Assembly (NCBI GenBank): GCA_964351405.1 | Contig: CAYGOE010000002.1 | Location: forward strand, 7,925 to 71,924 | DNA from: an uncultured Muribaculaceae bacterium | GTDB lineage: Bacteria > Bacteroidota > Bacteroidia > Bacteroidales > UBA932 | Length of the DNA: 64,000 nt | Direction: 5' to 3' | Part shown: piece after piece, positions 5,614 to 58,867 of the stretch | Position numbering within the stretch: the stretch's first letter is position 1 | Layout of the letters: each line of letters starts with the position of its first letter | Notes under the pieces: model-generated | Database searches by the model: none | Told to the model about the DNA's origin: nothing | Seen by the model: only the letters and a program-made list of their open reading frames with translations | Position numbers and translations under genes: made by a program

Positions 5614-5653
5614 TTTACTACTTTTAAAACAGCTGCAAAAGTAATAAAAAATG

Positions 5654-7677: not shown

Positions 7678-7685
7678 AACAGATA

Positions 7686-8792: not shown

Positions 8793-8815
8793 TATTATAT
8801 TTTAATATCCATTAA

Positions 8816-9406
8816 TTAGTTATGCATATTTTGCCAAACATCATAAACCCAGATATCGTCCGGTCCAAAGCTCATGTCACGTAGCCTATACATCTCGTTA
8901 AAAGCCTCACCCAAAGTGTTGTAGGAGGCAGTTGAGACTACTCGGAAGCCATTTTTAAAATCCATAATTGTTGGAGTAAACCCTTTGCTCTTTAAATACT
9001 CCTCCATTTTTGCAGAGTTAGAATGATCCTTAAAGCTTCCAATGATTACAAAGTACCTATTGGTTAGTCTTGTCTTAGCAGGAGTAGATACTGCTGTTTG
9101 CTCCGGTTGGCTATTTTGTTGAGGTTGGTTAGTTGCCGCAACATTGCTCTCTTTTTTCTGTTCATTAAAAGCAGAGGTGTCCGTGATCATCATTTTTTTA
9201 CCCTCTGTTGTACTAATCTCACCGACGTTTCCGCTTATAGCGATAGAGTCGTTCATCAACCTCACAGAGTCGTCATATTGCCTCTCCTTTTTCATATTAG
9301 CAATATCTTCCGAAGTTGCCATACCTAGCTGTACTCTTATCCAGTCACACCCTGTAACTACCATAATTGCAGTCATCAGGATTAAAAAAAAATTCAGCGT
9401 TCTCAT
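8816..9406 (-). CDS. SPOR domain lipoprotein
   Basis: Lipobox VTGC; low-complexity linker; C-terminal YFVIIGSFK...NS..M SPOR pattern. Confidence 0.75.
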   Translation of the reverse strand: MRTLNFFLILMTAIMVVTGCDWIRVQLGMATSEDIANMKKERQYDDSVRLMNDSIAISGNVGEISTTEGKKMMITDTSAFNEQKKESNVAATNQPQQNSQPEQTAVSTPAKTRLTNRYFVIIGSFKDHSNSAKMEEYLKSKGFTPTIMDFKNGFRVVSTASYNTLGEAFNEMYRLRDMSFGPDDIWVYDVWQNMHN

Positions 9407-9512
9407 AATTGATTAGTGTTAAGGATTTTTCTCTATATACAAATGTAACATATTTAGCTAAAAGAGAAAAATAAATGTATATTTGAATTTAGAAGGATTA
9501 TTTAATAGAGAT

Positions 9513-44403: not shown

Positions 44404-47400
44404 ATGAGGCCGAGTAATCTGAATCCGGAGAACACCCGAGATAGTCTTGCGTTTTTATCAGGCACCGCAGTAAAGTTTACCTCTTCCGATGTTGGCAGTT
44501 CAATTTATCAAATAATAGCGGAGTCTCTCCAAGAGTTGAATCCAAATGCAATAATAGTTGTAAACTCAGTTGACAAAGAGCAGGAGATTAGCCGGACCGA
44601 AGCGTTTATTTCATCTCCAAATTTACTGGAGAACATTATTTCCATACTTGGATTCAAGCCGGTGGGTAAAGTATACAAAATTGACTCATCTATTCTGGAG
44701 CTCAAATCGGGCTACATTAAAAAATTTGAAAAGGGTTTGCACGAACTCTCTTTTAGAACCATTCCAAAGATAATCTCCAAGTCTCTTGAACGACTCGTAA
44801 ATCTAGGTGAGATATACGGTATTGCATTTATGGTTGAAGAGAAGATGTATGCAAACGCCGCATTGATTTTTAAAAAAGGTGATACACTTGCCCACCGAGA
44901 GACAATTGAGACATTTGTCAAACAGGCATCAGTAACCCTTAAAAGAATAGAGGCAGAGAGAAGCGAGGAGAAGTTCCGATCACTATTTGAGCATATGACC
45001 CAGGGAGCTTTTAATCTGCGTTCTGATGGAAAGATGACCGATGTCAATAACGCTGCCCTTGAGCTCCTTGGAGTGGACAAAGTAGATTTTATGAGTAGGA
45101 AAAACAGTGTGGAGGATTGGGATTTAATTGACGAAAACCACAAATCAATTCCTACAAAAGAGTTTCCGGCAACTGTTGCATTAATGAAAGGAGAACCTGT
45201 TTACGAGAAGATTATCGGGGTGTTTAATCCTGTAAAAAAGGATTATGTGTGGCTACTTATAAATGCAATCCCTCAATTCACAACAGGGGAGAGAGCACCA
45301 ACATCGGTTTTTGTAACTTTTCAGGATATTACCACAATAAGGAGATCTGTTCACAGGGTAATGGATTCCGAGGCAAACGCTAGAGCAATTATGGAGTCTA
45401 CCGATGATGGTATTATCCTGCTTGACGCAGATGGAGTGGTTATCGACTGCAATGAAGCTCACGCAAATAGACTGAACATTGAGAGGGAGAATTTAATCGG
45501 AAAGAATATTTTTGATTTGCTCCCTCAGGATGAAGGAAGAATGAGAAAAGAGGCTATTAAAGAGGTAATTCAAAACGGCAAACCTGTTTGTGGAGAGGAT
45601 TTCAGAGCAGGATACTGGAATGAGTACTCAATTCACCCAATAATTTCTCATAGGAGTAAAGTTGAGAGTGTCGCTATCTTCTCCAAAGATATCACTGCGA
45701 GAAAAATGGCAGAGGAGAATATCAGAAACAATTACTCACTACTGAGAATTGCGGGAGAGACAGCTAAATTTGGAGGTTGGATAGTTGATCTTGACAATAA
45801 TATTGTGGTTTGGTCAGATGTCGTCGCAAAAATTCACGATATTGAACCCGGCTTCTCTCCTTCAATAGAAGAGGGGTTAAGTTTTTATGCTCCTGAATGG
45901 CAAGAGAAGATAAAGGAGGTCTTTTCCCGTTGTGTCACAAATGGTACACCCTATGACGAAGAGATGGAGATAATTACAAAAAAGGGGAAGAGGGTGTGGG
46001 TCAGAACCACCGGAGAGGCAGTTAGGGATTATAACGGGAAGATAGTAAAGATACACGGAGCTTTTCAGGACATCAGCGAGTACAAAAAGATATCGGATGC
46101 ACTCATTACCTACGAACGGCAATTTAAGAGCTCTATAGATAGTCTTCTGGATGCGTTTGGAATGTATACGGCAATCAGGGATAATAACAATCAGATAGTT
46201 GATTTTAGAATAGATTATGTAAATCCAAAGGCCTGTGATCTCAATAAAATGAGCAAAGAGGAGCAGATTGGCAAAGGGTTATGCGAAATTCTTCCCTCTC
46301 ACCGTTCATCTGGTCTGTTCAATGAGTATATAGATTTAGTGGAAAAAGGCAATGTTATAGAAAAAGAGGCTGTTACGTATCAGGACACATACGATGGGGA
46401 GGTTACAAAAAGAACTTTTGAGATAAAAGCATCAAAATTCTCGGATGGGTTTATTGCAACCTGGCGGGACATCTCTGTTAGAAAACAGACCGAGGAGAAG
46501 CTCCTTGAGAGCGAACGGGAGAAGGCCTCGTTAATTGATAATCTACCGGGTTTTGTCTATAAATGCGCTTTTGATTCTAACTGGACAATGTTTTACATAA
46601 GTGAAGAGTGTTATAAGATAACAGGATACCGTCCGGAGGATTTTATCTTTAATAATAAAATATCCTACAACGAAATCATTCATACCAATTTCAGGGAGTC
46701 TGTATGGAATAAGTTGCAGAATGTAATATCTTCGGGAACACCCTTTAGAGAGGAGTACCAAATAGTAACTGCAGATAATCATATAAGATGGGTGTGGGAG
46801 CAGGGTCGAGGTGTCTATTCTAAAGAGGGATTGCTTACTCATCTTGAAGGATTTATAACAGACATAACTGAGAGAAAAGAGATGGAGGAGGCCCTCAAGG
46901 AGAGCGAGGCGAGGCTTGTTGAGCTAAATGCAACTAAAGATAAGTTTTTCTCAATTATTGCACACGACCTCAAGAGCCCCTTTAATAGTATTATTGGCAT
47001 TGGAGAGCTTCTTATAGAGCAGATTAAGAAAAAAGAACTAGAAGATATTGAAGAGTATGCCGCCATTATGAAGGACTCTTCTCATAAAGCTATGAACCTG
47101 CTAACGAATCTGCTTGAGTGGTCCCGTTCACAAACAGGCAGGATAGATTTCATCCCTGAGTTTTTACGTCTCTCGCAACTTACAGATGAGGTGGTTGACA
47201 TCTTACATTTTACAGCAAACCAAAAATCCATTACAATCAACTCGCAAATTTCAAAGAGCGCTGTCTGCTACGCAGATAAAGCGATGATTGGTTCTGTTCT
47301 GCGCAATCTTGTCTCCAACGCAATTAAATTCACCTGCAAAGGTGGAGAGATTGTTATTTCGGCAAAGATGACTGAGGATAAATATATTGTTACTGTATCT

Positions 47401-47616
47401 GATAACGGAATGGGAATGTCAAAAGCAGAAGTAGAGAATCTATTTAGAATTGACAAATTATACTCTACCCGAGGGACCGACAACGAGGGGGGAACCGGCT
47501 TAGGTCTAATTCTTTGTAAAGAGTTTGTTACCCGTCACGGCTGTGAAATATGGGCAGAAAGTAAAAAGAGCGAGGGGAGCCGTTTCTCATTTACCCTGTC
47601 AAGGGATTCTCGGTAA
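44404..47616 (+). CDS. Cytoplasmic multi-PAS sensor histidine kinase
   Basis: About five PAS/PAC repeats (DIT/DIS.RK ends), HisKA IAHDLKSP, HATPase NAIKF, DNG.G, GTGLGL; no TM, no receiver domain. Confidence 0.92.
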   Translation: MRPSNLNPENTRDSLAFLSGTAVKFTSSDVGSSIYQIIAESLQELNPNAIIVVNSVDKEQEISRTEAFISSPNLLENIISILGFKPVGKVYKIDSSILELKSGYIKKFEKGLHELSFRTIPKIISKSLERLVNLGEIYGIAFMVEEKMYANAALIFKKGDTLAHRETIETFVKQASVTLKRIEAERSEEKFRSLFEHMTQGAFNLRSDGKMTDVNNAALELLGVDKVDFMSRKNSVEDWDLIDENHKSIPTKEFPATVALMKGEPVYEKIIGVFNPVKKDYVWLLINAIPQFTTGERAPTSVFVTFQDITTIRRSVHRVMDSEANARAIMESTDDGIILLDADGVVIDCNEAHANRLNIERENLIGKNIFDLLPQDEGRMRKEAIKEVIQNGKPVCGEDFRAGYWNEYSIHPIISHRSKVESVAIFSKDITARKMAEENIRNNYSLLRIAGETAKFGGWIVDLDNNIVVWSDVVAKIHDIEPGFSPSIEEGLSFYAPEWQEKIKEVFSRCVTNGTPYDEEMEIITKKGKRVWVRTTGEAVRDYNGKIVKIHGAFQDISEYKKISDALITYERQFKSSIDSLLDAFGMYTAIRDNNNQIVDFRIDYVNPKACDLNKMSKEEQIGKGLCEILPSHRSSGLFNEYIDLVEKGNVIEKEAVTYQDTYDGEVTKRTFEIKASKFSDGFIATWRDISVRKQTEEKLLESEREKASLIDNLPGFVYKCAFDSNWTMFYISEECYKITGYRPEDFIFNNKISYNEIIHTNFRESVWNKLQNVISSGTPFREEYQIVTADNHIRWVWEQGRGVYSKEGLLTHLEGFITDITERKEMEEALKESEARLVELNATKDKFFSIIAHDLKSPFNSIIGIGELLIEQIKKKELEDIEEYAAIMKDSSHKAMNLLTNLLEWSRSQTGRIDFIPEFLRLSQLTDEVVDILHFTANQKSITINSQISKSAVCYADKAMIGSVLRNLVSNAIKFTCKGGEIVISAKMTEDKYIVTVSDNGMGMSKAEVENLFRIDKLYSTRGTDNEGGTGLGLILCKEFVTRHGCEIWAESKKSEGSRFSFTLSRDSR

Positions 47617-47845: not shown

Positions 47846-48337
47846 ATGAAACCAATCATTGAGCTCATTAAAGAGCTTGCAGACAAGCACGGTCGCAACA
47901 GGCACAGCCTGCTTCCGATTCTACAAGGTGTCGTTGAACAGGAGAGGTATCTCTCCGAATATTCAATGATAGAGATAGCCAGGGAGCTGGATATCCCTGC
48001 GACTGAAGTCTATGGAACCGCAACCTTCTATACTTTTCTGGACTACAAAAAGATGGGGAAAAACATCATTCGTGTATGTAAAACCATCACCTGTTCTATG
48101 AAAGGAGAAAAGCAGATTCTGCTTGCCATAGAAGATATGTTAAAGATTAAAATCGGGGAGACAACCCAGGACGGGCTCTTCTCCTTACTTCAGACCAACT
48201 GTCTGGGGCTTTGCCACAAAGCACCTGCAATGCTCATCAACAACGAGGTCTACACAGATCTTACTCCTGAGAAGATTCGTGAAATTCTTACTATGTATAT
48301 GAACAGAAAAGATGAGGGAGAGAACAATGTCAACTAA
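47846..48337 (+). CDS. [FeFe]-hydrogenase gamma subunit (HydC/NuoE-like, 2Fe-2S)
   Basis: ATFY, CKTITC...CLGLC..AP. Confidence 0.92.
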   Translation: MKPIIELIKELADKHGRNRHSLLPILQGVVEQERYLSEYSMIEIARELDIPATEVYGTATFYTFLDYKKMGKNIIRVCKTITCSMKGEKQILLAIEDMLKIKIGETTQDGLFSLLQTNCLGLCHKAPAMLINNEVYTDLTPEKIREILTMYMNRKDEGENNVN

Positions 48338-49511
48338 TTATCAACTAAAACGGGCCGACTTCATTTTCAAAAATGAGAATGATTGGGAAGAGGTGCTGAG
48401 CAAAAGTATCAGCCGTCCACCACAAGAGCTGATAAATGAGTTGATCAGCTCCGAACTTAAAGGTAGAGGGGGAGCAGGATTTCCTACGGGACTAAAATGG
48501 AAAGTCTCGTCCGAGATGAAGAGTGATGTTAAATATGTGATCTGCAATGCTGACGAAGGTGAACCCGGCACCTTCAAAGACAGGGAAATTTTGTCTATGG
48601 TACCTTTTAAAGTTTTGACAGCAATTGCGATATGCGGGTATGTTATCGGTGCTAAAGAGGGTTTCATATACCTTCGAGGGGAGTATAACTTCCTTAAGCC
48701 CGAGCTTTTAAAAGCAATTAATGAATTTGAGTATTACTGTAAAGAGATTAAGTTAGATTTCTCAATAAAGATATTTATGGGAAGCGGCGCTTATATCTGC
48801 GGGGAGGAGACTGCACTTTTCGAATCTATGGAGGGTAAGAGAGGCGAACCGAGGAACAAACCACCCTACCCTACTTATTCCGGATATATGGGTAAGCCAA
48901 CAGTCATCAATAATGTGGAGACTCTTGCACACACCTATACAATATTCAAGTACGGCTCCAAAAGATTTTACGACCTGGGGGTTCAGTACTCGAGAGGTTC
49001 CAAACTCTTTTCGGTTTCAGGAGACACACCTAAACCCGGAATTTACGAACTGGAGCTGGGTATGAGTCTTGCTGACTTCGTGGAGGAGTTCGGTGACGAT
49101 GATACAAAGGCCGTTCAAGTTGGCGGAGCATCGGGATTTCTTGTACCAAGAAAGAGGTTTTCTGAGACCAATATCGGCTTTCAAGGCAAACTGGTTGGAA
49201 TTTCACTCCCTACCGGGGGCTCAATGATGCTTTTCAACAGTTCAAGATCTATGTACAATGTACTGGACAACTATCTTAACTTCTTTGCCGAAGAGTCTTG
49301 CGGGCAGTGTACACCTTGCCGTGTTGGTTGCCAACAGCTCCTAAGGGGTATAAAAGCCGTTAAAAGGGGTGAGAAGAATGCTCAGTATCTGGATAAAATG
49401 CTAAAACTTGCCGAGACAATGCAGGTCACTGCTAAATGTGGTCTGGGTCAATCGGTAGGTAATTCGTTTTCATCTATTGTTGAGAACTTCAGAGAGGAGA
49501 TGATTTACTAA
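48327..49511 (+). CDS. [FeFe]-hydrogenase beta subunit (short HydB/NuoF-like, FMN/NADH)
   Basis: GRGGAGFPTG, NADEGEPGTFKDR, YICGEETAL, ESCGQCTPCR..C; lacks accessory Fe-S domains. Confidence 0.92.
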   Translation: MSTNYQLKRADFIFKNENDWEEVLSKSISRPPQELINELISSELKGRGGAGFPTGLKWKVSSEMKSDVKYVICNADEGEPGTFKDREILSMVPFKVLTAIAICGYVIGAKEGFIYLRGEYNFLKPELLKAINEFEYYCKEIKLDFSIKIFMGSGAYICGEETALFESMEGKRGEPRNKPPYPTYSGYMGKPTVINNVETLAHTYTIFKYGSKRFYDLGVQYSRGSKLFSVSGDTPKPGIYELELGMSLADFVEEFGDDDTKAVQVGGASGFLVPRKRFSETNIGFQGKLVGISLPTGGSMMLFNSSRSMYNVLDNYLNFFAEESCGQCTPCRVGCQQLLRGIKAVKRGEKNAQYLDKMLKLAETMQVTAKCGLGQSVGNSFSSIVENFREEMIY

Positions 49512-49530
49512 TGCCAAAAAATTTATTTTT

Positions 49531-51321
49531 ATGGGAAAAAATCTGAAAATAACTATAAACGGAGCAACCGTAGAGGTTGAGAAAGGTGCCTCCATTCTTG
49601 AAGCAGCCCGCCAGGCAGGAGTAATCATACCCACTCTTTGTTACCACAAAGATCTTTGTGTTTCGGGAAACTGCAGGGTTTGTGTTGTGGAGTTGGTTGG
49701 TCAAAAAAGGCTCTCTCCTGCTTGCGCTACCCCTTGCGAAGAGGGTATGGAGGTGCTTACCAACTCTCTAAAAGTGAGAAACTCCAGAAAACACATAATT
49801 GAGTTGCTCCTCTCTGAGCACAATGCAGACTGTACCAGCTGTTACAAGAATGGCAAGTGTGAGCTTCAAAGTCTGGCATCGGAGTATAAGATTATGAATC
49901 AGGATTTCATCAATCTTATACCTTACCACAACTACACAATTGATATGTTCTCTCCGTCCATCATTAAGGACGACAGCAAATGTATCCGTTGCCAGAGATG
50001 CGTCCGTACCTGTGCAGAACTTCAGGGGGTAAATGCTCTCACAATGTCTTATAAAGGTGAGCACGCCCAAATAACCACCTTCTTTGAGAAAGCAATGAAC
50101 GATGTGGTTTGTACAAACTGCGGTCAGTGTATTAACCACTGCCCGACAGGGGCTCTGGTTGAGAAAAATTATATAGAGGAGGTTTGGAGTGCAATTGCAG
50201 ATAAAACAAAACACGTGGTTGTTCAGACTGCTCCTTCTGTTCGCGTTGGATTGGGCGAAGAGCTTGGTTTTGACCCTGGTGTAAGGGTTACAGGAAAGAT
50301 GGTTTCTGCGCTTAAACGACTTGGTTTTGACGCAGTAATGGATACCGATTTCACTGCAGACCTTACCATTATGGAGGAGGGTACAGAGCTTCTTACCCGA
50401 CTTAAAAAGGCTTTGGTAGACAAAGATCCCAATATTAAGCTCCCAATGACCACCTCTTGCTCTCCCGGCTGGATTAAGTTTATAGAGCATATGTACCCTG
50501 AGTATTTGGGCAACCTATCCAGCTGCAAATCACCACAGCAGATGTTTGGAGCTCTGGTAAAGACATACTATGCAAAAGCTCGTAATCTGAATCCTGCAAA
50601 CATAATCTCGGTATCTATAATGCCTTGTACCGCCAAGAAATTTGAGGCTAACCGTCCTGAGATGCACGACAGCGGTTATAGGGATGTAGACTTTGTTCTT
50701 ACTACCCGGGAACTCGCTATTATGATTAAACAGGCCGGTATAGATTTCCTTAAGCTTGAAGACTCACACTACGACAGGCTGATGGGAGAGTCGACCGGAG
50801 CAGGTGTTATCTTCGGTGCTACCGGAGGGGTAATGGAGGCAGCATTGAGAACTGCATACGAACTGGTTACAGGACGTGAAGTTCCGTTTGAGAACCTTAA
50901 CATCAACCCTGTCCGCGGTATAGAAGGCATTAGAGAGGCCTCCATTAAGATAGAAAATACACTCAAAGAGTGGAGTTTCCTTGAAGGGGTAGAGCTTAAA
51001 TGTGCCATCGCTCACGGTCTTGCAAATGCTAAAATAGTAATGGATGGGATAAAGAGCGGGAAGGCGAATTATCACTTCATTGAGTTTATGGCTTGTCCCG
51101 GCGGATGTCTCGGTGGTGGAGGACAACCAATTCCAACCAGTCCTGAGATTCGCGCAAAACGTTCAAAAGCCATCTACGCAGAAGATGCAGGAATGCCTTT
51201 GAGGAAATCTCACCTGAACCCGGAAATTGTTAAGATTTACAAAGACTTCCTTGTAGCACCTTGCGGAGAGATGTCACATAAACTGCTTCATACCAAATAC
51301 ACGCCACGCAAACGACGGTAA
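49531..51321 (+). CDS. Group A [FeFe]-hydrogenase catalytic subunit HydA (copy 1)
   Basis: H-cluster motifs TSCSPGW, MPCTAKKFE, EFMACPGGC.GGGGQP; N-terminal 2Fe-2S, His-4Fe-4S and 2x4Fe-4S. Confidence 0.96.
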   Translation: MGKNLKITINGATVEVEKGASILEAARQAGVIIPTLCYHKDLCVSGNCRVCVVELVGQKRLSPACATPCEEGMEVLTNSLKVRNSRKHIIELLLSEHNADCTSCYKNGKCELQSLASEYKIMNQDFINLIPYHNYTIDMFSPSIIKDDSKCIRCQRCVRTCAELQGVNALTMSYKGEHAQITTFFEKAMNDVVCTNCGQCINHCPTGALVEKNYIEEVWSAIADKTKHVVVQTAPSVRVGLGEELGFDPGVRVTGKMVSALKRLGFDAVMDTDFTADLTIMEEGTELLTRLKKALVDKDPNIKLPMTTSCSPGWIKFIEHMYPEYLGNLSSCKSPQQMFGALVKTYYAKARNLNPANIISVSIMPCTAKKFEANRPEMHDSGYRDVDFVLTTRELAIMIKQAGIDFLKLEDSHYDRLMGESTGAGVIFGATGGVMEAALRTAYELVTGREVPFENLNINPVRGIEGIREASIKIENTLKEWSFLEGVELKCAIAHGLANAKIVMDGIKSGKANYHFIEFMACPGGCLGGGGQPIPTSPEIRAKRSKAIYAEDAGMPLRKSHLNPEIVKIYKDFLVAPCGEMSHKLLHTKYTPRKRR

Positions 51322-51349
51322 CCTTGCCAAGGATTGCGTTATGTAAATG

Positions 51350-51387
51350 AAAATCGCAGTTTCCTAAGTTTTGGAAACTGCGATTTT
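51350..51387. terminator. Bidirectional intrinsic terminator
   Basis: Perfect 15-bp inverted repeat AAAATCGCAGTTTCC/GGAAACTGCGATTTT between convergent genes. Confidence 0.85.
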
Positions 51388-51395
51388 TAGTTTTG

Positions 51396-51764
51396 CTAAA
51401 ACAGGGTTTTGCAATCTTTACACTTAAATCTTGATTTGATATTCCCGACTGGGCTAAATGAGAGCACAGCAATCAATATAAGAAACATCTTTTTAATCTT
51501 GTTGTTACCAATACCTAATTGAACATTTTTTGATGCGCAGTTTGGGCAGATAATCTCAGTAGCTGTTTCGTCTGAGATTATAGCTTTTGCCCTATCCATA
51601 TCCTTCTCATTGATCATTACGTCTATACCCCCCGGCATAAAAGGGTATAGAGTGCTAAAATTTTCGTTTGTGATAAAACACTCAATATCTTCACTTTCAA
51701 GTTTGCTTTTGATGATATTGGCATCGAAAGCTGTATTACAGGATATAAGTCTTACTATTTCCAT
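51396..51764 (-). CDS. DUF2007 (PII-like) protein with zinc ribbon and TM segment
   Basis: A.IIKSKLESE.I.CF..NEN, CPNC.S ... C..C. Confidence 0.75.
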   Translation of the reverse strand: MEIVRLISCNTAFDANIIKSKLESEDIECFITNENFSTLYPFMPGGIDVMINEKDMDRAKAIISDETATEIICPNCASKNVQLGIGNNKIKKMFLILIAVLSFSPVGNIKSRFKCKDCKTLF

Positions 51765-51864
51765 AGCCTTGGATTTGTTAGTTTGCAATTAAAATCGGGA
51801 TTGATATGAATTCAGCTCAAAATTAATAAGATAATAACAAATATCCAATTAAATTAAAAGAGAA

Positions 51865-51923: not shown

Positions 51924-53696
51924 CTAAAAGATTCCTCTCTCTACATAGCTGGTATGAAGCAGTTCGTGAGAGTGGTGGCCAAGCGGCTCTTTGAGAAACT
52001 CGCTGTAAATTGCTTTAATAGCGGGATTATCGTGAGATTTCCGGATAGCGTGCATTGAGTCCTCCTTATAGATTGAGTCTGCTCTCTTTTGCCTGATTGC
52101 CCAGGTTGTAGGGATAGCCTGTCCTCCGCCTCCAAGGCAACCTCCGGGGCAGGTCATAACCTCTATAAATGCGTAAGGAGATTTACCCTCTTCAATCTGC
52201 TCAAGGAGTGTACGGGCATTTTTGAGTGAGTGAGCTACGGCAACCTTAATCTTGGTTCCGTCAAGATCCAGCTCAGCCTCTTTTATCCCTTCAAACCCTC
52301 GAACGACATTCAGATCAATCTTAGGGAGCGGTTTTCCTGTGACAACCTCATATGCTGTTCTAACAGCTGCCTCCATAACCCCTCCTGTCGCTCCGAAAAT
52401 CACTCCGGCTCCGGTTGATATTCCGAGTGGATGGTCGAACTCCTCCTCAGGAAGAGAGCTAAAGTCTATCCCTGTCTTTTTGAACATCTTGGCAAGCTCC
52501 CTTGTAGTGAGAACATAGTCTACATCGTAGAAGTTCTCTTTATCTGCAAGATTGAGTTTATCTTTCCAGAAGTGGAAAGCAGAGTTCATCTCCGGTCTTT
52601 TGCACTCAAACTTCTTGGCTGTACAAGGCATTATTGAGACAACCACCAGTTTACGAGGATCAATGTTGAGCTTCTGGGCATAGTATGTCTTTGCTACAGC
52701 CCCAAACATCTGTTGAGGAGATTTGCAGGTAGAGAGGTGTTTCAACGATTTAGGGAAGAAGTGCTCAATGAATTTTATCCAGCCCGGTGAGCAGGATGTA
52801 ACCATCGGAAGGGTGCCTCCGCTTTTGATACGGCTTATTAGTTCAAAGCCCTCCTCCATAATGGTGAGGTCGGCAGTAAATTGAGTGTCAAAAACCTTAT
52901 CAAAGCCCAGTTTCCTTAGGGATGAAACCATCTTGCCGGTAACCAGAGCACCTTCGCTCATACCCATCGCCTCCCCGATACCTACGCGAATTGCAGGGGC
53001 AGTTTGTACAACAACAATCTTGTCGCTATTGTAGATATCTGCAAAGACAGCTTCGGTGTCGTCCTTCTCTACAATTGCTGCAGTAGGGCATACCAAAGCA
53101 CACTGCCCGCAATTTGTACAAGCAACATTCCCAAGACCTCGGTTCTGATAGGTAGCAACCTTGCTCCTAAGCCCCCTCCCTGCAAAATCAATTGCATATA
53201 CCGTCTGAACATCTGCACAAACAGCAATACATCGGCCACAAAGAATACATTTATCCGGTTTTCTTACCAATGAAAGTGATGTATCGTCCGGTTTTTCTGA
53301 TGGTTTAGTCTTAGGAAAAGACGTCTCACTCATTCCAAGATCTGCCGATAGCTCCTGAAGTTCGCAATTGCGGTTTCTCTCGCAGATTAGACAATCTTTA
53401 GGGTGGTTTGCAAGAATCAGCTCCAGATTTGTTTTCCTGGCCTGGTTAATTGCAGTAGAGTGAGTTGTAATCTCCATCCCCTCATTTATATTTGTAACGC
53501 AGGATCTTACCAAAGATTTTGCACCCTTGACCTCTACAACACAAATGGCACAAGAGGCGTTATGAGATACATCTTTAAGATAACATAGAGAGGGAACTTT
53601 TATACCGGTCTCAAGGCAGGCCTCAAGAATGGTCTTCCCTTCGGTAACTTGATGGTCATTGCCATCTATTTTAATATTTATCAATATATTTTCCAT
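51924..53696 (-). CDS. Group A [FeFe]-hydrogenase catalytic subunit HydA (copy 2)
   Basis: TSCSPGW, MPCTAKKFE, EVMTCPGGC.GGGGQ; same N-terminal Fe-S complement as copy 1. Confidence 0.96.
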   Translation of the reverse strand: MENILINIKIDGNDHQVTEGKTILEACLETGIKVPSLCYLKDVSHNASCAICVVEVKGAKSLVRSCVTNINEGMEITTHSTAINQARKTNLELILANHPKDCLICERNRNCELQELSADLGMSETSFPKTKPSEKPDDTSLSLVRKPDKCILCGRCIAVCADVQTVYAIDFAGRGLRSKVATYQNRGLGNVACTNCGQCALVCPTAAIVEKDDTEAVFADIYNSDKIVVVQTAPAIRVGIGEAMGMSEGALVTGKMVSSLRKLGFDKVFDTQFTADLTIMEEGFELISRIKSGGTLPMVTSCSPGWIKFIEHFFPKSLKHLSTCKSPQQMFGAVAKTYYAQKLNIDPRKLVVVSIMPCTAKKFECKRPEMNSAFHFWKDKLNLADKENFYDVDYVLTTRELAKMFKKTGIDFSSLPEEEFDHPLGISTGAGVIFGATGGVMEAAVRTAYEVVTGKPLPKIDLNVVRGFEGIKEAELDLDGTKIKVAVAHSLKNARTLLEQIEEGKSPYAFIEVMTCPGGCLGGGGQAIPTTWAIRQKRADSIYKEDSMHAIRKSHDNPAIKAIYSEFLKEPLGHHSHELLHTSYVERGIF

Positions 53697-53698
53697 AT

Positions 53699-56600
53699 TT
53701 ATTCCTCCTCATTATTAACGGATACCCTCACATCGCAGCGCAGACACCTTGAAGCCTCTGCATAGGCCTGCTCTCTTGAATACCCAAGATTGATCTCTTT
53801 GAAATTCCCTATCCTCTCTTCAAGTGGTCTCTTGATTGAGTAGTGTCTGTTACCACCTTCCGGTTTTAAAGGAACATCGTCGCTATAATCAAATCCTCTG
53901 AATAATTTATGGAAACGTCTCTTGTTCATTAGTTTGTAATCTATAATCTCTGCCGCTTTTTTAGCAATTCCCATTGCCTCTGCAGCTGTTGCCGGCCCTG
54001 TAATTGCATCTCCAATAGCGTAGATCTTAGGGTGGTTTGTCTCAAAAGTAAAGTGGTCTGCATATACATTACCGTCGGAGAGAGTTTTTAACCCGAACTC
54101 TTTAAGGAATGGTGCTTCAACCTCCTCACCGATAGCCATAATTACGGTATCGCATCCAATAATGAACGACTCTCCGGTGGAGACAGGTTTACGTCTGTTA
54201 GAGAGGTCAATATCTCCGCAATTCATTTTGCTGAGCTCTATGCCTCTAACCCTGTCGTTAACATCTGCAAGAATCTCCTTAGGGTTGCTAAGGAAGAGGT
54301 AGTTAACCCCCTCTATCTCGGCCTCCTTAATCTCATCCTTATTTGCAGGCATATCTGACTTGAGTCTCCTGTAAACAACAGTCACCTCTGCACCAAATCT
54401 GTGAGCGGTTCTTGCTGCATCTATGGCAACATTGCCAGCTCCAATCACAACTACATTCTTACCAATATTTGGCACCTCTCCTTTGGATACATCCTTTAGG
54501 AAATCCATACCTGATATTACCCCCTCGAGATGGTTACCCTCAATGTTGAGCATTATATCCTTATGGGCACCGATAGCAATAATAACTTTGTTGAAGTCTC
54601 TCTCGAGCTCCTCCATTGAGATATCCTTGCCAACAGTTGTATTAAAGACAAAATGTACTCCCAAATCCTTGATAAACTGAATTTCGTAGTCAAGAGTCTC
54701 TAATGGTAACCTGTATTTAGGAATTCCCCAGCGTAAAATTCCTCCTGCTGCACTTTCAGATTCAAACACAGTTACATCGTGTCCAAGGCGAACAAGATAG
54801 AATGCTGCTGTCAACCCTGCAGGTCCTCCACCTATGATTGCGATTTTCTTGTAGGTCGGAGGTAGTTTCTCCTTGATAAGTCTGTTATAGATTCTCTGTG
54901 ATTTGCCCTCTTTGTAAACGGCATCCGAAATATACCTATGAATATCTCCCTGTGAAACGGGAGCATCAATAGTTTCACGAAGGCACTTCATCTGACAGTG
55001 GAAGTGGCAGATACGCCCTACGGTAGAAGGTAGCGGATTATCTCTCAGTGTAGATTCAAATGCATCTTCAAGTTTATCCTCTTTAAGCAGGGTGAGGTAT
55101 CGTGGAATATTCATATGCAGAGGACAGCTGTTTACACAAAGTGCTGTAAAGAGTGAGTGGCATATACCCGGCTCACACTTCTTCTCTATCATATGGTGGT
55201 CATATTCATCCCGAAAATATCTTAAAGTTGTAAGTACAGGGTTAGGTGCTGTCTGACCCAGCCCGCAAAGAGATGTGCTTTTTATAACCTGACCCAGCTT
55301 TACCAAAGTATCAAGATCCTCTGATGTTGCCTTACCCTCTGTAACTCTGTTTAAAATATGGAGTGTCTGAGCAAGTCCTTCACGACAAGGGGTGCATTTC
55401 CCGCAAGACTCACCATTTGAGAACTCTGTAAAATATCTGGCAACGTCAACCATACAGTTGTCTTCATCCATCACCACCATCCCTCCGGAGCCCATAATGG
55501 TTCCTAAAGCGTTGAGAGACTCATAATCTACAGGAGTACTTAGGTATTCAACAGGAATACATCCACCCGAAGGGCCACCCGACTGAACAGCCTTTACTCT
55601 TTTGTGGGTTCCTGTTCCCTCTCCTATTTTAAATACAATGGTCTCAAGGGTAGATCCCAATGGGAGCTCTACAAGACCGGTGTTCTTTACCTTTCCAACC
55701 AGAGAGAAGACCTTTGTTCCGGAGCTCTTTTCGGTTCCGGTACCTGTAAGCCACTCTCCCCCTTTGGAGATAATTACCGGAATGTTGCACCAGGTCTCAA
55801 CATTGTTGATATTGGTCGGTTTTCCGTAAAGACCTTTTTCTGCAGGATAGGGAGGCCGAGGTGTCGGACGACCGGACCTGCCTTCAATACTGTGGATTAA
55901 AGCAGTCTCCTCTCCACAAACAAATGCTCCGGCTCCTTCTACTATGTCAATATCAAAGTTGAACCCGGAGTTCAAAATATCATCTCCCAATAAGCCACGC
56001 TCTTTTGCCTGGTTGATTGCACCTTTTAACCTCTGAACTGCTAATGGATACTCAGCTCTTATATAGACAACCCCTTTTGAAGCTCCCATTGCATAGGCAC
56101 CTATGGTCATCCCCTCTATGAGCATAAACGGATCACTCTCAATCTCGTTTCTGTTCATAAACGCACCCGGGTCACCCTCATCTGCATTACAAATTACGTA
56201 CTTCTGGTCTGCCTCAACTTTAGCCATCAGCTCCCATTTAACACCTGTCGGGAATCCGGCACCGCCTCGTCCTCTCAACTTTGAACTCTTCACTTCGTCA
56301 ATTATTCCAACAGGGGTAAGATCGTGAAGAGCCTTGTAAAGAGGGAAGAAGCCACCTACTGCTATATACTCCTCAATATCATCAGGTACAATAAGTCCAC
56401 AATTACGCAGGACAATCTTCTTTTGCCATTTGAAGAAAGGAACCTCGTTCCAAAGAGGGTACTCGGTAAGGCCCTCCCCGAATTTGAATTTTCCGGTGAT
56501 AAAGTCCCACTCCTCAATCCTGCACATAATATTTCTGTATGGCATTATTCCTTTCTCAATCCCGATAACGATAGGGACAACATCGTTTTCCGAAACCCGG

Positions 56601-56863
56601 TGCATTATTATTAGTGGTTTTCCGGGAATGTAAATGTTAATAAGCGGCTCTTCGGCACAAAATCCGAAACAGCCGGTTCTCTTTAAAATAATGTTCAGTT
56701 TGCGCTCTTTGATTGTTCTCTCAAAGCTGTCAAACAGCACTTCTGCACCACGGCCTATACCGCAGGTTCCCATACCTATAGCAACGTAAGGCTTGTCAGG
56801 AAGGATCTTCTTTGCAGCAATCTCTTTTAGCTCTATAAGCTTAGCAAAGTCTGATATTCTCAT
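53699..56863 (-). CDS. HydB/NuoF-like beta subunit fused to a GltD/NfnB-like FAD/NADP(H) oxidoreductase
   Basis: Thioredoxin-like N-terminus (TC...GCFGFC), NADEGDPGAFM, GGPSGG, ESCGKCTPCRE; then C...CP, NP....GRIC...C...C, GGGPAG, GAGNVAID..R, YRR, C-terminal EASRCLRC. Confidence 0.92.
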   Translation of the reverse strand: MRISDFAKLIELKEIAAKKILPDKPYVAIGMGTCGIGRGAEVLFDSFERTIKERKLNIILKRTGCFGFCAEEPLINIYIPGKPLIIMHRVSENDVVPIVIGIEKGIMPYRNIMCRIEEWDFITGKFKFGEGLTEYPLWNEVPFFKWQKKIVLRNCGLIVPDDIEEYIAVGGFFPLYKALHDLTPVGIIDEVKSSKLRGRGGAGFPTGVKWELMAKVEADQKYVICNADEGDPGAFMNRNEIESDPFMLIEGMTIGAYAMGASKGVVYIRAEYPLAVQRLKGAINQAKERGLLGDDILNSGFNFDIDIVEGAGAFVCGEETALIHSIEGRSGRPTPRPPYPAEKGLYGKPTNINNVETWCNIPVIISKGGEWLTGTGTEKSSGTKVFSLVGKVKNTGLVELPLGSTLETIVFKIGEGTGTHKRVKAVQSGGPSGGCIPVEYLSTPVDYESLNALGTIMGSGGMVVMDEDNCMVDVARYFTEFSNGESCGKCTPCREGLAQTLHILNRVTEGKATSEDLDTLVKLGQVIKSTSLCGLGQTAPNPVLTTLRYFRDEYDHHMIEKKCEPGICHSLFTALCVNSCPLHMNIPRYLTLLKEDKLEDAFESTLRDNPLPSTVGRICHFHCQMKCLRETIDAPVSQGDIHRYISDAVYKEGKSQRIYNRLIKEKLPPTYKKIAIIGGGPAGLTAAFYLVRLGHDVTVFESESAAGGILRWGIPKYRLPLETLDYEIQFIKDLGVHFVFNTTVGKDISMEELERDFNKVIIAIGAHKDIMLNIEGNHLEGVISGMDFLKDVSKGEVPNIGKNVVVIGAGNVAIDAARTAHRFGAEVTVVYRRLKSDMPANKDEIKEAEIEGVNYLFLSNPKEILADVNDRVRGIELSKMNCGDIDLSNRRKPVSTGESFIIGCDTVIMAIGEEVEAPFLKEFGLKTLSDGNVYADHFTFETNHPKIYAIGDAITGPATAAEAMGIAKKAAEIIDYKLMNKRRFHKLFRGFDYSDDVPLKPEGGNRHYSIKRPLEERIGNFKEINLGYSREQAYAEASRCLRCDVRVSVNNEEE

Positions 56864-57377
56864 CTTTATTATCCTCCTGTAAGTTTTGTAATATTTTTTT
56901 GATTTGTTCCGAAGTTACATTGCTGTAGATGACACCATCAACTGCAACGACAGGCGCCAGGGCACATTGGCCAAAGCACGCAACTGTCTTGACCGTTATA
57001 AGTCTATCTTCGGTAGTAAAGCTGGTTTCACCCGCCTCAAGTGCCTCTTTGCATCCCGGCATAGTTGAAAGATCATCCAGAAGCACCTTTGACCCTTTAG
57101 TATGGCAGGCAGTTCCTCGGCATACTATAATGGTGTGCTTACCTTGTGGTTTTAGGTTGAAAAATGAGTAAAAGGTCGCAACGCTGTAGATCTGGGAAAG
57201 CGGGATCTTTGTCTGAGATGAGAGATAGTCCATACTCTGCATATCCAGGTACTTGTACTCGCTTGCCTCCTGGATCTCCTCCATTGTGGTGAGCAACTCG
57301 CCCGGTTTGCCCTTGTGCTTGGAGATAATCTCGTCGACCGCAGATTTGCCGACGTAGTTCTCTTCGTGTGTGTTCAT
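56841..57377 (-). CDS. [FeFe]-hydrogenase gamma subunit (HydC/NuoE-like)
   Basis: VATFYSFF, CRGTAC...CFGQC..AP. Confidence 0.92.
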   Translation of the reverse strand: MNTHEENYVGKSAVDEIISKHKGKPGELLTTMEEIQEASEYKYLDMQSMDYLSSQTKIPLSQIYSVATFYSFFNLKPQGKHTIIVCRGTACHTKGSKVLLDDLSTMPGCKEALEAGETSFTTEDRLITVKTVACFGQCALAPVVAVDGVIYSNVTSEQIKKILQNLQEDNKDENIRLC

Positions 57378-57700
57378 AGGCTCTTTAAAAGTTTTGGTTT
57401 GTATTTGTTTTTGATCAAAATTCCGGATTATCAGGGCACTTCATAGATCAAACTTAACCTTTCCAAACATTATAATTACAATCTTCCCGGTTTAAGTTGC
57501 GATTTTATCAAATCGGTATCAAATATAGCGAATATATGTAACATATCTAATCATTTTTGGGCACAAATTGACTAAGCAGGCTATCTATTTGTTAGGTAAT
57601 CTATTTATTCTCTGGTGAAAATTATGTACCCTTCAGATGTTAAATTGAGAGTGGGTTTTAAGAATGGTTTTGCTAACTTTGTATTGCTAACTGAGAACTT

Positions 57701-58867
57701 ATGATAGAATTTGTAGTCTTTACCCTTCCAATGTTTGTCTCCCTATTCTGGTCAGTTGCCCTTTTTGCATCTGCAAAAAGGGATGACAAGCCAAGAGTTC
57801 TGCTTGCGGTTTTTATGTTGTTTGCCACTATCCTATATGCATCTCACGCTCTCTATTTTTCCGAAAATTATGACATCTACATAATAATGGATCCTCTATA
57901 CACCCTGGCATCTCTCTCTGTCTTCCCTCTCTTCTACCTGTACATAAAGACGATTGCAAAAGATAGCAACCCAGGTCCAAGAGATTTATGGATACTTTTA
58001 CCTGGTCTGTTTTTCGGTATTACTTCTGCTATCTTTTTTATTATACTCTCACCCGACGAACTCTTTGCTTTTATCCGGAATATGGTTTACAAAGAGAAGA
58101 CAGATTTTATATTCTCTGCATCAGCAAAAATTCAGGTTATACTATATAAGGCAGGAAGAGTTGTATTTGCGATCCAACTTGTACCGTCTGTTTACTTCAG
58201 CTGGAAACTTATTAGAGCATACGACAAAAAGATAAAAGAGTTTTACTCATCTACAGAGGAGAGGACGATCAACTGGGCCGGGAAAATGATGATTGCAATG
58301 GTCTGCGCTGCAGTCTTCTCCCTAATTTTAAACACTCTTGGAAAAGCCTTCTTTATTCACGACTCTATGTTACTGCTTTTTCCTTCACTGGCATTCAGCA
58401 TTATACTGTATGCAATAGGGTTTATGGGCTTTAAACAACGTTACTCAATTCAAGCACATCAGGGTGACCTCCTCAAAGATAATTACATTAACCACAAGCA
58501 CTCAACAGAGGAGACAAGGCACAAACTACACGACCAGCTGCTTGTGCTTCTCAATGAAAAAGAGATTTTCCGTAATACAAATCTGAGAATAACAGATATC
58601 TCAGAACTACTCGGAACAAACAGATCTTATGTATCCAATATCGTAAACAATGAGTTTAAATCTAACTTCTCCGATCTTATTAACCACTATAGGGTTGAGT
58701 ATGCAAAAAAGCTGCTTCTTGACGAGAAGTTATATATACTGGAGTACATCTCCGAAGAGTCCGGCTTCGCATCAGTAAATTCATTTCTGAGGGCATTTAA
58801 AAAAGAGACCGGAACAACTCCGGGTAACTACAGAAAGGAGATTAACAAAAAAAATAAAAACCAATAA
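57701..58867 (+). CDS. Membrane-anchored AraC family regulator
   Basis: About seven N-terminal TMs; C-terminal HTH ..LGTNRSYVS..N...F...IN.YR, SGF.S..SF.RAFKK.TG.TP. Confidence 0.92.
   Translation: MIEFVVFTLPMFVSLFWSVALFASAKRDDKPRVLLAVFMLFATILYASHALYFSENYDIYIIMDPLYTLASLSVFPLFYLYIKTIAKDSNPGPRDLWILLPGLFFGITSAIFFIILSPDELFAFIRNMVYKEKTDFIFSASAKIQVILYKAGRVVFAIQLVPSVYFSWKLIRAYDKKIKEFYSSTEERTINWAGKMMIAMVCAAVFSLILNTLGKAFFIHDSMLLLFPSLAFSIILYAIGFMGFKQRYSIQAHQGDLLKDNYINHKHSTEETRHKLHDQLLVLLNEKEIFRNTNLRITDISELLGTNRSYVSNIVNNEFKSNFSDLINHYRVEYAKKLLLDEKLYILEYISEESGFASVNSFLRAFKKETGTTPGNYRKEINKKNKNQ

What the first reader, a model, noticed from the sequence alone, without database searches (positions are those of the whole stretch)
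53699..56863. HydB with bifurcation signatures whose ferredoxin domain is replaced by a circularly permuted GltD/NfnB-like NADP(H) module
Seen: after the HydB core (..HHMIEKKCEPGIC) there is no 2x[4Fe-4S] ferredoxin domain. Instead there is a Fer4_20-type Cys cluster, an FAD fold (GGGPAG) and a second Rossmann fold (GAGNVAID..R, YRR) typical of NADP binding. The segment NFKEINLGYSREQAYAEASRCLRC, normally at the N-terminus of GltD/NfnB, sits at the extreme C-terminus. Inference: one chain with two flavin sites could couple H2, NAD(H) and NADP(H) without soluble ferredoxin, acting as a hydrogenase-transhydrogenase. NuoF-GltD fusions are known, but I do not know of a characterised one on a Bacteroidetes hydrogenase.
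Basis: partly seen in the sequence, partly recalled or inferred. Interest (0 to 1): 0.7.

Follow-up and report, generated by a model that had tools for sequence, protein, structure and literature searches.

The report
Iron hydrogenase with built-in NADPH module
This is a real three-gene iron-iron hydrogenase in which the part that normally docks ferredoxin is replaced by an NADPH-binding flavin module; the design was described from genomes in 2024 and is widespread, and I found no report of a laboratory test.

Summary
On the minus strand, hydC (56841-57377), hydB (53699-56863) and hydA (51924-53696) form a tightly packed [FeFe]-hydrogenase operon. The 1054-aa HydB keeps the N-terminal [2Fe-2S] domain, the FMN/NADH core and the His/Cys zinc linker. 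It has no 2x[4Fe-4S] ferredoxin-like domain. A GltD/NfnB-like module (two [4Fe-4S] clusters, FAD, NADPH-type YRR Rossmann fold) sits there instead.

The circular permutation relative to NfnB/GltD is real. It is also the native order of the NADPH module in the solved Stn/NfnABC transhydrogenases (8oh5, 9bov, 9n5u; Z 43-44).

The architecture is published as 'sub-type I BfuABC' (Zheng & Huang 2024, PMC11406978). I found no biochemical test of it. It occurs in more than 20 phyla and pairs with [FeFe], [NiFe], formate-dehydrogenase-like and GltB-like partners. This scan has already noted it on other DNA (117 notes, at least 111 genomes).

Most likely function, by inference only: H2 is coupled to both NAD(H) and NADP(H), with NADP(H) taking ferredoxin's place.

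The same small genome also has a canonical HydABC, a minimal-HydB HydABC and NfnAB.

Verdict: new member of a known, uncharacterised kind; modest interest.

The parts
56841..57377 (-). hydC: NuoE-like thioredoxin-type [2Fe-2S] subunit, 178 aa (the mobile C1-cluster subunit in Bfu enzymes). Its end overlaps the start of hydB by 23 nt.
   Evidence: Pfam 2Fe-2S_thioredx, E 1.2e-39; translation.
53699..56863 (-). hydB::gltD fusion, 1054 aa: the flavoprotein subunit with an FMN/NADH site and an added FAD/NADPH module.
56384..56863 (-). HydB N-terminal thioredoxin-like [2Fe-2S] domain (aa 1-160). C34, C65, C69 and C114 are invariant.
   Evidence: Alignment to 9n5u_B, 9bov_B and 8oh5_B; invariant columns.
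55193..56380 (-). NuoF-like core (aa 162-557): FMN/NADH site (GRGGAGFP at 198-205) and the B1 [4Fe-4S] cluster (C487, C490, C493, C533).
   Evidence: Pfam Complex1_51K and NADH_4Fe-4S; TIGR01959 at 470.8 bits, below that model's 558.65-bit whole-protein cut-off; PDB HydB, NfnB and StnB chains at E 1e-165 to 1e-190.
55160..55195 (-). His/Cys linker (H557, C563, C568). It corresponds to the Zn2+-stabilised linker that precedes the ferredoxin-like domain in HydB and StnB.
   Evidence: Aligned to DEY..H....C....C in 7t2r_B, 7q4v_B and 8oh5_B. Zn linker described in PMC10482914. Residues invariant.
54908..55162 (-). Main part of the GltD-type Fe-S subdomain (aa 568-652): C576, C580, C619, C623, C627 and H642.
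   Evidence: Pfam Fer4_20 profile positions 24-111; site table.
53969..54847 (-). FAD fold (GGGPAG at 678-683) and NADPH-type Rossmann fold (GAGNVAID at 808-815; Y831-R832-R833).
   Evidence: Pfam Pyr_redox_2, E 1.1e-37. Aligned to the equivalent segments of Nfn-Bfu NfnA (9bov_A), whose Stn counterpart 8oh5_C has NADPH bound, and of NADP(H)-bound NfnI-L. YRR kept in 42 of 44 modules.
53720..53815 (-). Permuted C-terminal peptide (aa 1017-1048) carrying C1040-x2-C1043. It supplies the first two cysteines of the GltD Fe-S domain.
   Evidence: Fer4_20 profile positions 1-32; BLASTP to own NfnB residues 16-44; collinear with 9bov_A and 8oh5_C to residues 572-573; pLDDT 77-84.
51924..53696 (-). hydA: [FeFe]-hydrogenase catalytic subunit, 590 aa, M3-type, with H-cluster motifs TSCSPGW, MPCTAKKFE and EVMTCPGGC.
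   Evidence: NCBIfam FeFe_hydrog_A6, 863.6 bits against a cut-off of 765; Pfam Fe_hyd_lg_C, E 2e-99; A. woodii HydA1 (7q4v_A), E 2e-180.
51396..51788 (-). DUF2007 gene, 130 aa, possibly the last gene of the operon. No terminator lies between it and hydA.
   Evidence: Pfam DUF2007, E 1.7e-11; terminator scan.
51348..51389 (.). Hairpin with a 17-bp stem, shared by the two convergent hydrogenase units; terminator-like.

Best explanation
This is a HydABC-type (Bfu family, group A3, 'sub-type I') [FeFe]-hydrogenase.

Shown:
- HydA is a complete H-cluster subunit.
- HydC and the HydB core keep the cofactor sites that form the Bfu bifurcation site (FMN, the B1 [4Fe-4S] cluster, the HydC [2Fe-2S] cluster), plus the N-terminal [2Fe-2S] domain and the zinc linker.
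- The ferredoxin-like domain with clusters B3 and B4 is absent. In Bfu enzymes that domain receives the low-potential electrons and docks ferredoxin.
- In exactly that place sits a Stn/NfnA-type GltD module with two [4Fe-4S] clusters, FAD and an NADPH-type nucleotide fold.

Inferred:
- The two GltD clusters take over the role of B3 and B4.
- The pair of electrons that would go to ferredoxin goes to FAD and then as a hydride to NADP+.
- The enzyme would therefore catalyse 2 H2 + NAD+ + NADP+ <-> NADH + NADPH + 2 H+ without soluble ferredoxin.
- In a fermenter it would run towards H2, using NADPH (about -380 mV in cells) to help NADH (about -280 mV). That would allow a higher H2 pressure than an NADH-only enzyme, but a lower one than the ferredoxin-coupled form.
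For: Domain composition and motifs.

The HydB half is most similar to Bfu B subunits (7t2r_B, 9n5u_B, 9bov_B, 7q4v_B, 8oh5_B; E 1e-172 to 1e-191), and the H-x5-C-x4-C linker aligns.

The model of residues 552-1054 matches NfnA/StnC at Z 43-44, rmsd 2.3-2.5 A, over 441-452 residues. These matches run collinearly through the C-terminal peptide. NfnB, NfnI-L and GltD score Z 32-37.5 and their alignments stop near model residues 429-434.

The seven cysteines and YRR are conserved.

The position of StnC K170, the non-Cys ligand of the proximal cluster (PMC10482914), is Lys in most fused proteins, His642 in this subclade and Glu in the genome's own NfnB. That places the module with the non-bifurcating, NADPH-binding Stn type.

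Only seven residues separate the linker cysteine C568 from the first module cysteine C576. In the canonical HydB the B3/B4 motif begins 13 residues after the equivalent cysteine.

Ferredoxin binds at the B3/B4 domain in NfnABC (PMC12018979).

The genome also holds a canonical ferredoxin-type HydABC, a minimal HydB form and NfnAB, so the fused form is an extra enzyme and not a replacement.

The fused B subunit also pairs with [NiFe], formate-dehydrogenase-like and GltB-like partners. H2 and formate both lie near -420 mV, consistent with the fused subunit being a general NAD+/NADP+ output module.
Against: There is no biochemical datum for any member.

NAD and NADP couples differ by only about 100 mV in vivo, so a bifurcating core seems more than such a reaction needs.

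The relative position of the GltD clusters and the HydC cluster could not be measured. No coordinates were returned, and the Fe-S loops have pLDDT below 50.

NADPH specificity is inferred from the YRR motif and from homology to NADPH-binding relatives; some GltD-family members use NADH.

Ferredoxin might still dock on the distal GltD cluster, as it does in NfnB.

The authors who described the type suggested the FAD might be a second bifurcation site.
Confidence: 0.5

Rival explanations
1. Four-substrate enzyme. Ferredoxin is still used and docks between the HydC C-terminal domain and the distal GltD cluster. NADP(H) is an additional entry or exit, so the complex would merge a bifurcating hydrogenase with an Stn-like transhydrogenase. 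It would link H2, NAD, NADP and ferredoxin, possibly with the FAD as a second bifurcation centre.
For: In NfnB/NfnSL the distal [4Fe-4S] cluster of this fold is the ferredoxin site. The Bfu core is fully retained. The genome has two 2-oxoacid:ferredoxin oxidoreductase-type genes, so reduced ferredoxin is made. Zheng & Huang raise a second FAD bifurcation centre.
Against: The residue at the proximal cluster is His here and Lys in relatives, not the Glu of bifurcating NfnB. The Stn-type FAD was shown experimentally not to bifurcate (PMC10482914). The genome already has a canonical ferredoxin-type HydABC and NfnAB for these reactions.
Confidence: 0.2
2. Uncoupled dual-specificity hydrogenase. The FMN site and the FAD site are two independent doors for NADH and NADPH into one Fe-S chain leading to the H-cluster. 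There would be no energetic coupling between them, that is, a non-bifurcating NAD(P)H:H+ oxidoreductase.
For: Both pyridine nucleotides are more positive than H2, so coupling is not needed for H2 uptake. Loss of B3 and B4 is a hallmark of non-bifurcating relatives (PMC7311640; PMC11406978).
Against: The N-terminal [2Fe-2S] domain, the zinc linker and the HydC cluster are strictly conserved, although the minimal non-bifurcating HydB next door has shed the N-terminal [2Fe-2S] domain and the C-terminal linker and ferredoxin-like domain. By homology, the C-terminal position is reached only through the mobile HydC cluster.
Confidence: 0.2
3. The GltD module is not an NADP(H) site in vivo. Instead it passes electrons to another partner, as the small subunit does in glutamate synthase, or it uses NADH.
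For: In Loki-archaeal, Aminicenantes and Acidobacteriota loci the fused B subunit sits next to a 525-aa protein with a Glu_synthase (PF01645) domain and, in one locus, a glutamate dehydrogenase. The family includes NADH-using members.
Against: This genome has no credible GltB (best hit 21 bits; the genome is 87% complete). The operon here contains HydA, not a GltB-like gene. The YRR signature and the whole second Rossmann fold match NADPH-binding structures.
Confidence: 0.07

Closest known systems
'Sub-type I BfuABC' group A3 [FeFe]-hydrogenase (Zheng & Huang 2024, mSystems, PMC11406978)
   Same: Same architecture. The B3/B4 domain of BfuB is replaced by a DPD_II (Fer4_20) Fe-S domain plus a C-terminal FAD/NAD(P) domain. 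HydA is M3a-type and has Ser at the fifth position of the P1 motif. This type co-occurs with a sub-type II form that lacks B3, B4 and B5.
   Different: That description comes from Hydrogenedentota and reference genomes, from sequence only, and has no biochemistry. Many of those clusters carry a BfuD gene, which is absent here. I did not find the permuted C-terminal CxxC or the K/H/E ligand position in the passages of that paper that I read.
StnABC / NfnABC (Nfn-Bfu) electron-bifurcating transhydrogenases (PDB 8oh5, 9bov, 9n5u)
   Same: Same BfuBC-type core. The same permuted GltD module is the best structural match (Z 43-44, 35-40% identity), with FAD and an NADPH site.
   Different: In those enzymes the module is inserted in the HydA-like A subunit and feeds the mid-potential chain. 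The A subunit has no catalytic site, and the B subunit keeps its B3/B4 ferredoxin-binding domain. Here the module is on B in place of B3/B4, and A is a true hydrogenase. The ligand position is Lys in StnC and His642 here.
Electron-bifurcating HydABC of A. woodii, T. kivui and T. maritima (PDB 7q4v, 8a6t, 7p5h)
   Same: Same three subunits and gene order. HydA is about 55% identical to A. woodii HydA1, including the TSCSPGW motif. The HydB core, N-terminal domain and zinc linker align.
   Different: Those HydB proteins end in a 2x[4Fe-4S] ferredoxin-like domain and use ferredoxin. This one lacks that domain and adds about 480 residues carrying FAD and an NADPH site.
NfnAB / NfnSL (PDB 4ylf, 5jca) and the glutamate synthase small subunit GltD
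   Same: Same fold for the Fe-S, FAD and NADPH module (Z 32-37.5); YRR motif; seven Cys.
   Different: These have the canonical order (the CxxC peptide is at the N-terminus), a Glu ligand, and a partner NfnA or GltB. The genome has its own canonical NfnAB elsewhere (L090).
HydDB group A2 ('glutamate-synthase-linked') [FeFe]-hydrogenases
   Same: A hydrogenase associated with a GltD-like NADPH flavoprotein.
   Different: Group A2 is defined by a GltD-like neighbour without a NuoF domain (10.1101/061994). Here NuoF and GltD are one chain, so the rule files it under A3.

Membership tests
Bfu-type HydABC [FeFe]-hydrogenase (group A3) | HydA with H-cluster domain and motifs | tested here: met
   NCBIfam FeFe_hydrog_A6, 863.6 bits against a cut-off of 765. 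Pfam Fe_hyd_lg_C and Fe_hyd_SSU. Motifs aligned to 7q4v_A.
Bfu-type HydABC [FeFe]-hydrogenase (group A3) | NuoF-like B subunit with FMN/NADH site and B1 cluster, plus NuoE-like C subunit with [2Fe-2S] | tested here: met
   Cysteines invariant.
Bfu-type HydABC [FeFe]-hydrogenase (group A3) | N-terminal [2Fe-2S] domain and His/Cys zinc linker in B | tested here: met
   Alignment to solved B subunits. C34, C65, C69, C114, H557, C563 and C568 invariant. Metal content itself is not testable here.
Bfu-type HydABC [FeFe]-hydrogenase (group A3) | C-terminal 2x[4Fe-4S] ferredoxin-like domain (B3/B4) in B | tested here: not met
   No Fer4-family hit in P0001, whereas the genome's canonical HydB has one at 542-592. 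The region is occupied by Fer4_20 and Pyr_redox_2.
Bfu-type HydABC [FeFe]-hydrogenase (group A3) | NADH- and ferredoxin-coupled (bifurcating) H2 turnover | not testable with these tools
   Needs enzyme assays.
Sub-type I BfuABC (PMC11406978) | B3/B4 domain of BfuB replaced by DPD_II Fe-S domain plus C-terminal FAD/NAD(P) domain, next to BfuA and BfuC | tested here: met
   Definition read.
Stn / NfnABC (Nfn-Bfu) transhydrogenase | Permuted GltD-like FAD/NADPH module | tested here: met
   Z 43-44, collinear to the C-terminal CxxC; sequence alignments.
Stn / NfnABC (Nfn-Bfu) transhydrogenase | Module inserted in the A subunit, which lacks a catalytic centre; B keeps B3/B4 | tested here: not met
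   The module is at the C-terminus of B. A has an H-cluster domain. B3/B4 are absent.
Stn / NfnABC (Nfn-Bfu) transhydrogenase | Lys ligand (StnC K170) at the proximal cluster | tested here: not met
   His642 here, invariant in the subclade. Lys in 36 of the 43 modules taken from other genomes.
NfnAB / NfnSL | Canonical N-terminal CxxC order, Glu ligand, NfnA (PyrK-like) partner in the operon | tested here: not met
   Permuted order. His in place of Glu. No NfnA-like gene in the operon; the genome's NfnAB is on another contig.
HydDB group A2 [FeFe]-hydrogenase | Adjacent GltD-like protein without a NuoF domain | tested here: not met
   The adjacent protein carries NuoF domains. Rule read.

The most novel reading that the evidence does not exclude
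The fused FAD is a second, working bifurcation or gating centre. One complex would then exchange electrons among H2, NAD(H), NADP(H) and ferredoxin, or would drive NADPH formation from low-pressure H2 at the expense of NAD+ reduction. That would be a coupling mode not yet described for any hydrogenase. The invariant His642 on the proximal cluster of this subclade would tune it.
Probability: 0.12. Interest if true: 0.7.

Novelty: new member of a known kind. Interest (0 to 1): 0.3.

Why it matters
If NADP(H) really replaces ferredoxin, this large and phylogenetically broad class of hydrogenases, together with its [NiFe] and formate-dehydrogenase counterparts, would link H2 and formate directly to the anabolic NADPH pool. 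Current surveys count these enzymes as ordinary NADH-plus-ferredoxin 'group A3' enzymes, so H2 budgets and redox models for guts, digesters and sediments would be misassigned for them.

This small genome is a convenient natural test set. It carries the canonical, the minimal and the GltD-fused trimeric hydrogenases, plus NfnAB.

The finding adds little that is new in kind.

Tried and rejected
- **Literature search for a characterised example**. None was found. Welsh et al. 2025 treat the Bacteroides group A3 enzyme as NADH-plus-ferredoxin confurcating and do not mention NADPH. I could not establish whether the B. thetaiotaomicron HydB is of the fused type.
- **Inactive HydA because of TSCSPGW.** Rejected. 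The active A. woodii HydA1 has the identical motif, and Ser at this position is reported as common.
- **GltD module serving a glutamate synthase in this genome.** Rejected. There is no credible GltB.
- **Single origin of the fusion.** Not supported. The HydB-core tree needs at least 5 changes across well-supported branches. Caveats: the sample was picked by similarity to a fused query, the tree came from a quick search, and the outgroup branch is long.
- **Cysteine geometry of the first cluster.** It could not be measured. No coordinates are returned, and the Fe-S loops are modelled at pLDDT below 50. The claim that CLRC completes the cluster rests on homology to solved StnC/NfnA and on conservation.
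- **Sigma-70 promoter scan.** No enrichment (14 sites against 12.6 expected). It is also the wrong consensus for Bacteroidota.
- **Complex prediction.** Not used. The full HydB exceeds the size limit, and a truncated construct would not answer the wiring question.
Full report
**Observation**

On the minus strand, three tightly packed ORFs encode a NuoE-like HydC (56841-57377, 178 aa), a 1054-aa HydB (53699-56863) and a 590-aa HydA (51924-53696). The end of hydC overlaps the start of hydB by 23 nt. Two nucleotides separate hydB from hydA.

Pfam places four domains on HydB: Complex1_51K (191-362), NADH_4Fe-4S (473-557), Fer4_20 (568-652, profile positions 24-111 only) and Pyr_redox_2 (673-965). 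It finds no Fer4 dicluster domain.

HydA passes NCBIfam's FeFe_hydrog_A6 model (863.6 bits, cut-off 765). It is most similar to A. woodii HydA1 (E 2e-180).

**The permutation**

- Residues 1000-1054, scanned alone, match Fer4_20 profile positions 1-32 (E 2.2e-6, above the cut-off). This is the part missing from the hit at 568-652.
- The same genome has a canonical NfnAB on another contig (L090 4897-7174).
- BLASTP of the module against that NfnB gives two pieces: module residues 554-981 against NfnB 27-461 (36% identity), and 1015-1043 against NfnB 16-44 (52% identity, E 6e-7).

The order is therefore truly permuted relative to NfnB/GltD. It is not unique, however. In the solved Nfn-Bfu/Stn enzymes the same peptide ('NF.E....EA..EASRCL.C') also follows the module.

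An AlphaFold model of residues 552-1054 (pLDDT 77.6; the C-terminal peptide at 77-84; the Fe-S loops below 50) was compared with solved structures:

| Match | Z | rmsd (A) | Aligned residues | Extent |
|---|---|---|---|---|
| 9bov_A | 44.0 | 2.4 | 452 | model 24-499 against chain 102-573 |
| 9n5v_A | 43.6 | 2.3 | 441 | through the C-terminal peptide |
| 8oh5_C | 43.2 | 2.5 | 452 | through the C-terminal peptide |
| NfnI-L, NfnB, GltD | 32-37.5 | | | stops near model residues 429-434 |

**What is kept and what is replaced**

The HydB half aligns best to B subunits of Bfu enzymes (7t2r_B, 9n5u_B, 9bov_B, 7q4v_B, 8oh5_B). In 15 fused homologues the following are invariant:

- C34, C65, C69, C114 (N-terminal [2Fe-2S] domain)
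- C487, C490, C493, C533 (B1 cluster)
- H557, C563, C568 (the zinc linker described for StnB)
- C576, C580, C619, C623, C627, C1040, C1043 (module cysteines)
- Y831, R832, R833

The genome's canonical HydB (P0124, contig C15) continues after the equivalent linker with CTGCTACIRACP...CIRCGAC, the B3/B4 motif. In the fused protein, CVNSCP follows after only seven residues, and the two 'missing' cysteines arrive from the C-terminus.

Cryo-EM work on NfnABC places ferredoxin between the C subunit's mobile domain and the B3/B4 domain. It describes the low-potential path as C1 to B3/B4 to ferredoxin (PMC12018979). The fused module therefore stands where the low-potential exit normally is.

**Type of module**

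In StnC the proximal cluster is ligated by K170, which is strictly conserved in StnC. NfnB has Glu there, and the Stn FAD was shown not to bifurcate (PMC10482914).

I aligned 43 modules from other genomes, this protein's module and the genome's own NfnB. The result at that position:

- Lys in 36 of the 43 modules from other genomes
- His in the other 7 and in this protein (H642); all eight belong to this protein's subclade
- Glu in the own NfnB

All seven cysteines are conserved in all 44 modules. YRR is conserved in 42.

The module is thus of the Stn/NfnA kind. NADPH binding is inferred from this homology and from the YRR motif.

**Distribution and partners**

The 120 best clusters in the protein database all have the fused architecture at 1016-1063 aa, apart from one 971-aa entry. 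They come from Bacteroidales, Rikenellaceae, Paludibacter, Ignavibacteriae and Omnitrophota.

Species-representative genomes give full-length fusions in more than 20 phyla, including a Loki archaeon.

Among 46 fused loci, counting this one, the gene downstream is:

| Downstream partner | Loci |
|---|---|
| True HydA | 15 |
| HoxU-like plus [NiFe] subunits | 5 |
| Molybdopterin formate-dehydrogenase-like subunit | 6 |
| HoxU-like plus a 525-aa Glu_synthase-domain protein | 6 |
| Not visible in the locus | 14 |

In a sample of 201 genomes of the same order, about 12 carry the fused form, and most of the rest have a 600-650-aa HydB.

A tree of the HydB core does not make the fused forms one clade (at least 5 forced changes). 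It places this protein with two other [FeFe] examples and five [NiFe]-type ones. The caveats are sampling bias and a quick search.

**Genome context**

The window also holds a convergent second operon (47846-51321, plus strand): NuoE-like, a 399-aa minimal NuoF-like HydB without the N- and C-terminal cluster domains, and a 596-aa HydA.

Contig C15 holds a canonical HydB and HydA preceded by a HydS-like sensory hydrogenase, a PHP-domain gene and kinase-type ATPase genes.

The genome is a 2.3-Mb, 87%-complete MAG. It has two POR-type genes and no credible GltB.

**Literature**

Zheng & Huang (2024, PMC11406978) describe exactly this design as 'sub-type I BfuABC': the B3/B4 domain is replaced by DPD_II plus a C-terminal FAD/NAD(P) domain. 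They speculate about a second FAD bifurcation centre and say that studies are needed. They also note that Ser at the fifth P1 position is common, and that sub-type II lacks B3, B4 and B5 and co-occurs with other types.

The HydDB rule ('GltD but not NuoF' gives A2; NuoF gives A3) files such enzymes silently under A3.

The Bfu family survey (PMC9304861) states that the BfuBC cofactors are conserved in all Bfu enzymes, and my term searches in it found no mention of the fusion.

I found no biochemical study of the fused type.

This scan has noted the same architecture on other DNA many times (117 notes in at least 111 genomes). One of those notes pointed me to the 2024 paper, which I then read myself.

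**Mechanism**

Preferred reading (inference, confidence about 0.5): the two GltD clusters act as B3 and B4, collect the two low-potential electrons of the four-electron Bfu cycle, and pass them via FAD to NADP+. This gives 2 H2 + NAD+ + NADP+ <-> NADH + NADPH + 2 H+ without ferredoxin.

Using the physiological potentials tabulated in PMC9304861 (NADH -280 mV, NADPH -380 mV, H2 -414 mV at 1 bar), the mean donor potential of about -330 mV would sustain roughly 1e-3 bar of H2. That estimate is my own calculation.

Rivals:
- A four-substrate enzyme that still uses ferredoxin (0.2).
- Two uncoupled NAD(P)H doors (0.2).
- A module that serves another partner or uses NADH (0.07).

**Verdict**

The thing itself is a further member of a published, widespread and biochemically uncharacterised hydrogenase type.

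Noticed in passing
window 47846-51321 (+): A second, convergent trimeric [FeFe]-hydrogenase operon: NuoE-like (163 aa), a minimal 399-aa NuoF-like HydB lacking both the N-terminal [2Fe-2S] and the C-terminal cluster domains ('sub-type II', the non-bifurcating type), and HydA (596 aa). A PAS histidine kinase (44404-47616) lies upstream.
   Followed up: partly
L086 (G000 contig C15, 28000-38491), ORFs 3832-5175, 5552-6259, 6256-6804, 7398-9191, 9201-10490: A third, canonical HydABC-type cluster in the same genome. HydB is 597 aa with a Fer4 dicluster tail, and HydA is cut by the contig end. It is preceded by a HydS-like sensory hydrogenase (447 aa), a PHP-domain gene and kinase-type ATPase genes.
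   Followed up: partly
L090 4897-7174 (G000 contig C10): Canonical NfnAB: a 286-aa PyrK-like NfnA and a 461-aa NfnB with an unpermuted Fer4_20 domain and Glu at the proximal-cluster ligand position.
   Followed up: yes
window 51924-53696 (-), HydA residues about 299-305: The H-cluster L1/P1 motif reads TSCSPGW, with Ser where CpI has the second Cys. A. woodii HydA1 (7q4v_A), an active enzyme, has the identical motif. PMC11406978 reports Ser as common at this position.
   Followed up: yes
window 54938-54940 (-), HydB residue H642: The position of the StnC K170 / NfnB Glu ligand of the proximal [4Fe-4S] cluster is an invariant His in this subclade (this protein, L006-L011, L047). It is Lys in most other fused proteins. 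The effect on cluster potential is unknown.
   Followed up: partly
L010 7135-10830; L024 7132-9470; L041 7081-9444: In a Loki archaeon, an Aminicenantales MAG and an Acidobacteriota MAG, the fused NuoF::GltD subunit is followed by a HoxU-like Fe-S protein and a 525-aa protein with a Glu_synthase (PF01645) domain. In L010 a glutamate dehydrogenase follows as well. This may be an undescribed Bfu-type complex.
   Followed up: partly
G187:C110:3705-5336, G142:C83:76586-78202, G066:C18:5755-7362 and others: In several genomes of the same order, HydB-like matches lie inside open frames of 1826-1865 aa. This suggests single-chain fusions of hydrogenase subunits.
   Followed up: no
G178:C1:1122950-1126082: In one relative the fused gene is interrupted (2 TAG and 2 TAA inside the match, which is split into two frames). 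It is probably a pseudogene.
   Followed up: no
window 51348-51389 and 51396-51788 (-): A hairpin with a 17-bp stem lies between the two convergent hydrogenase units. A DUF2007 gene sits between hydA and this hairpin and may be co-transcribed. An AraC-family regulator (57701-58867, +) is divergent from hydC, and TATATTTG (about 57521-57528, minus strand) resembles a Bacteroidota -7 promoter element.
   Followed up: no
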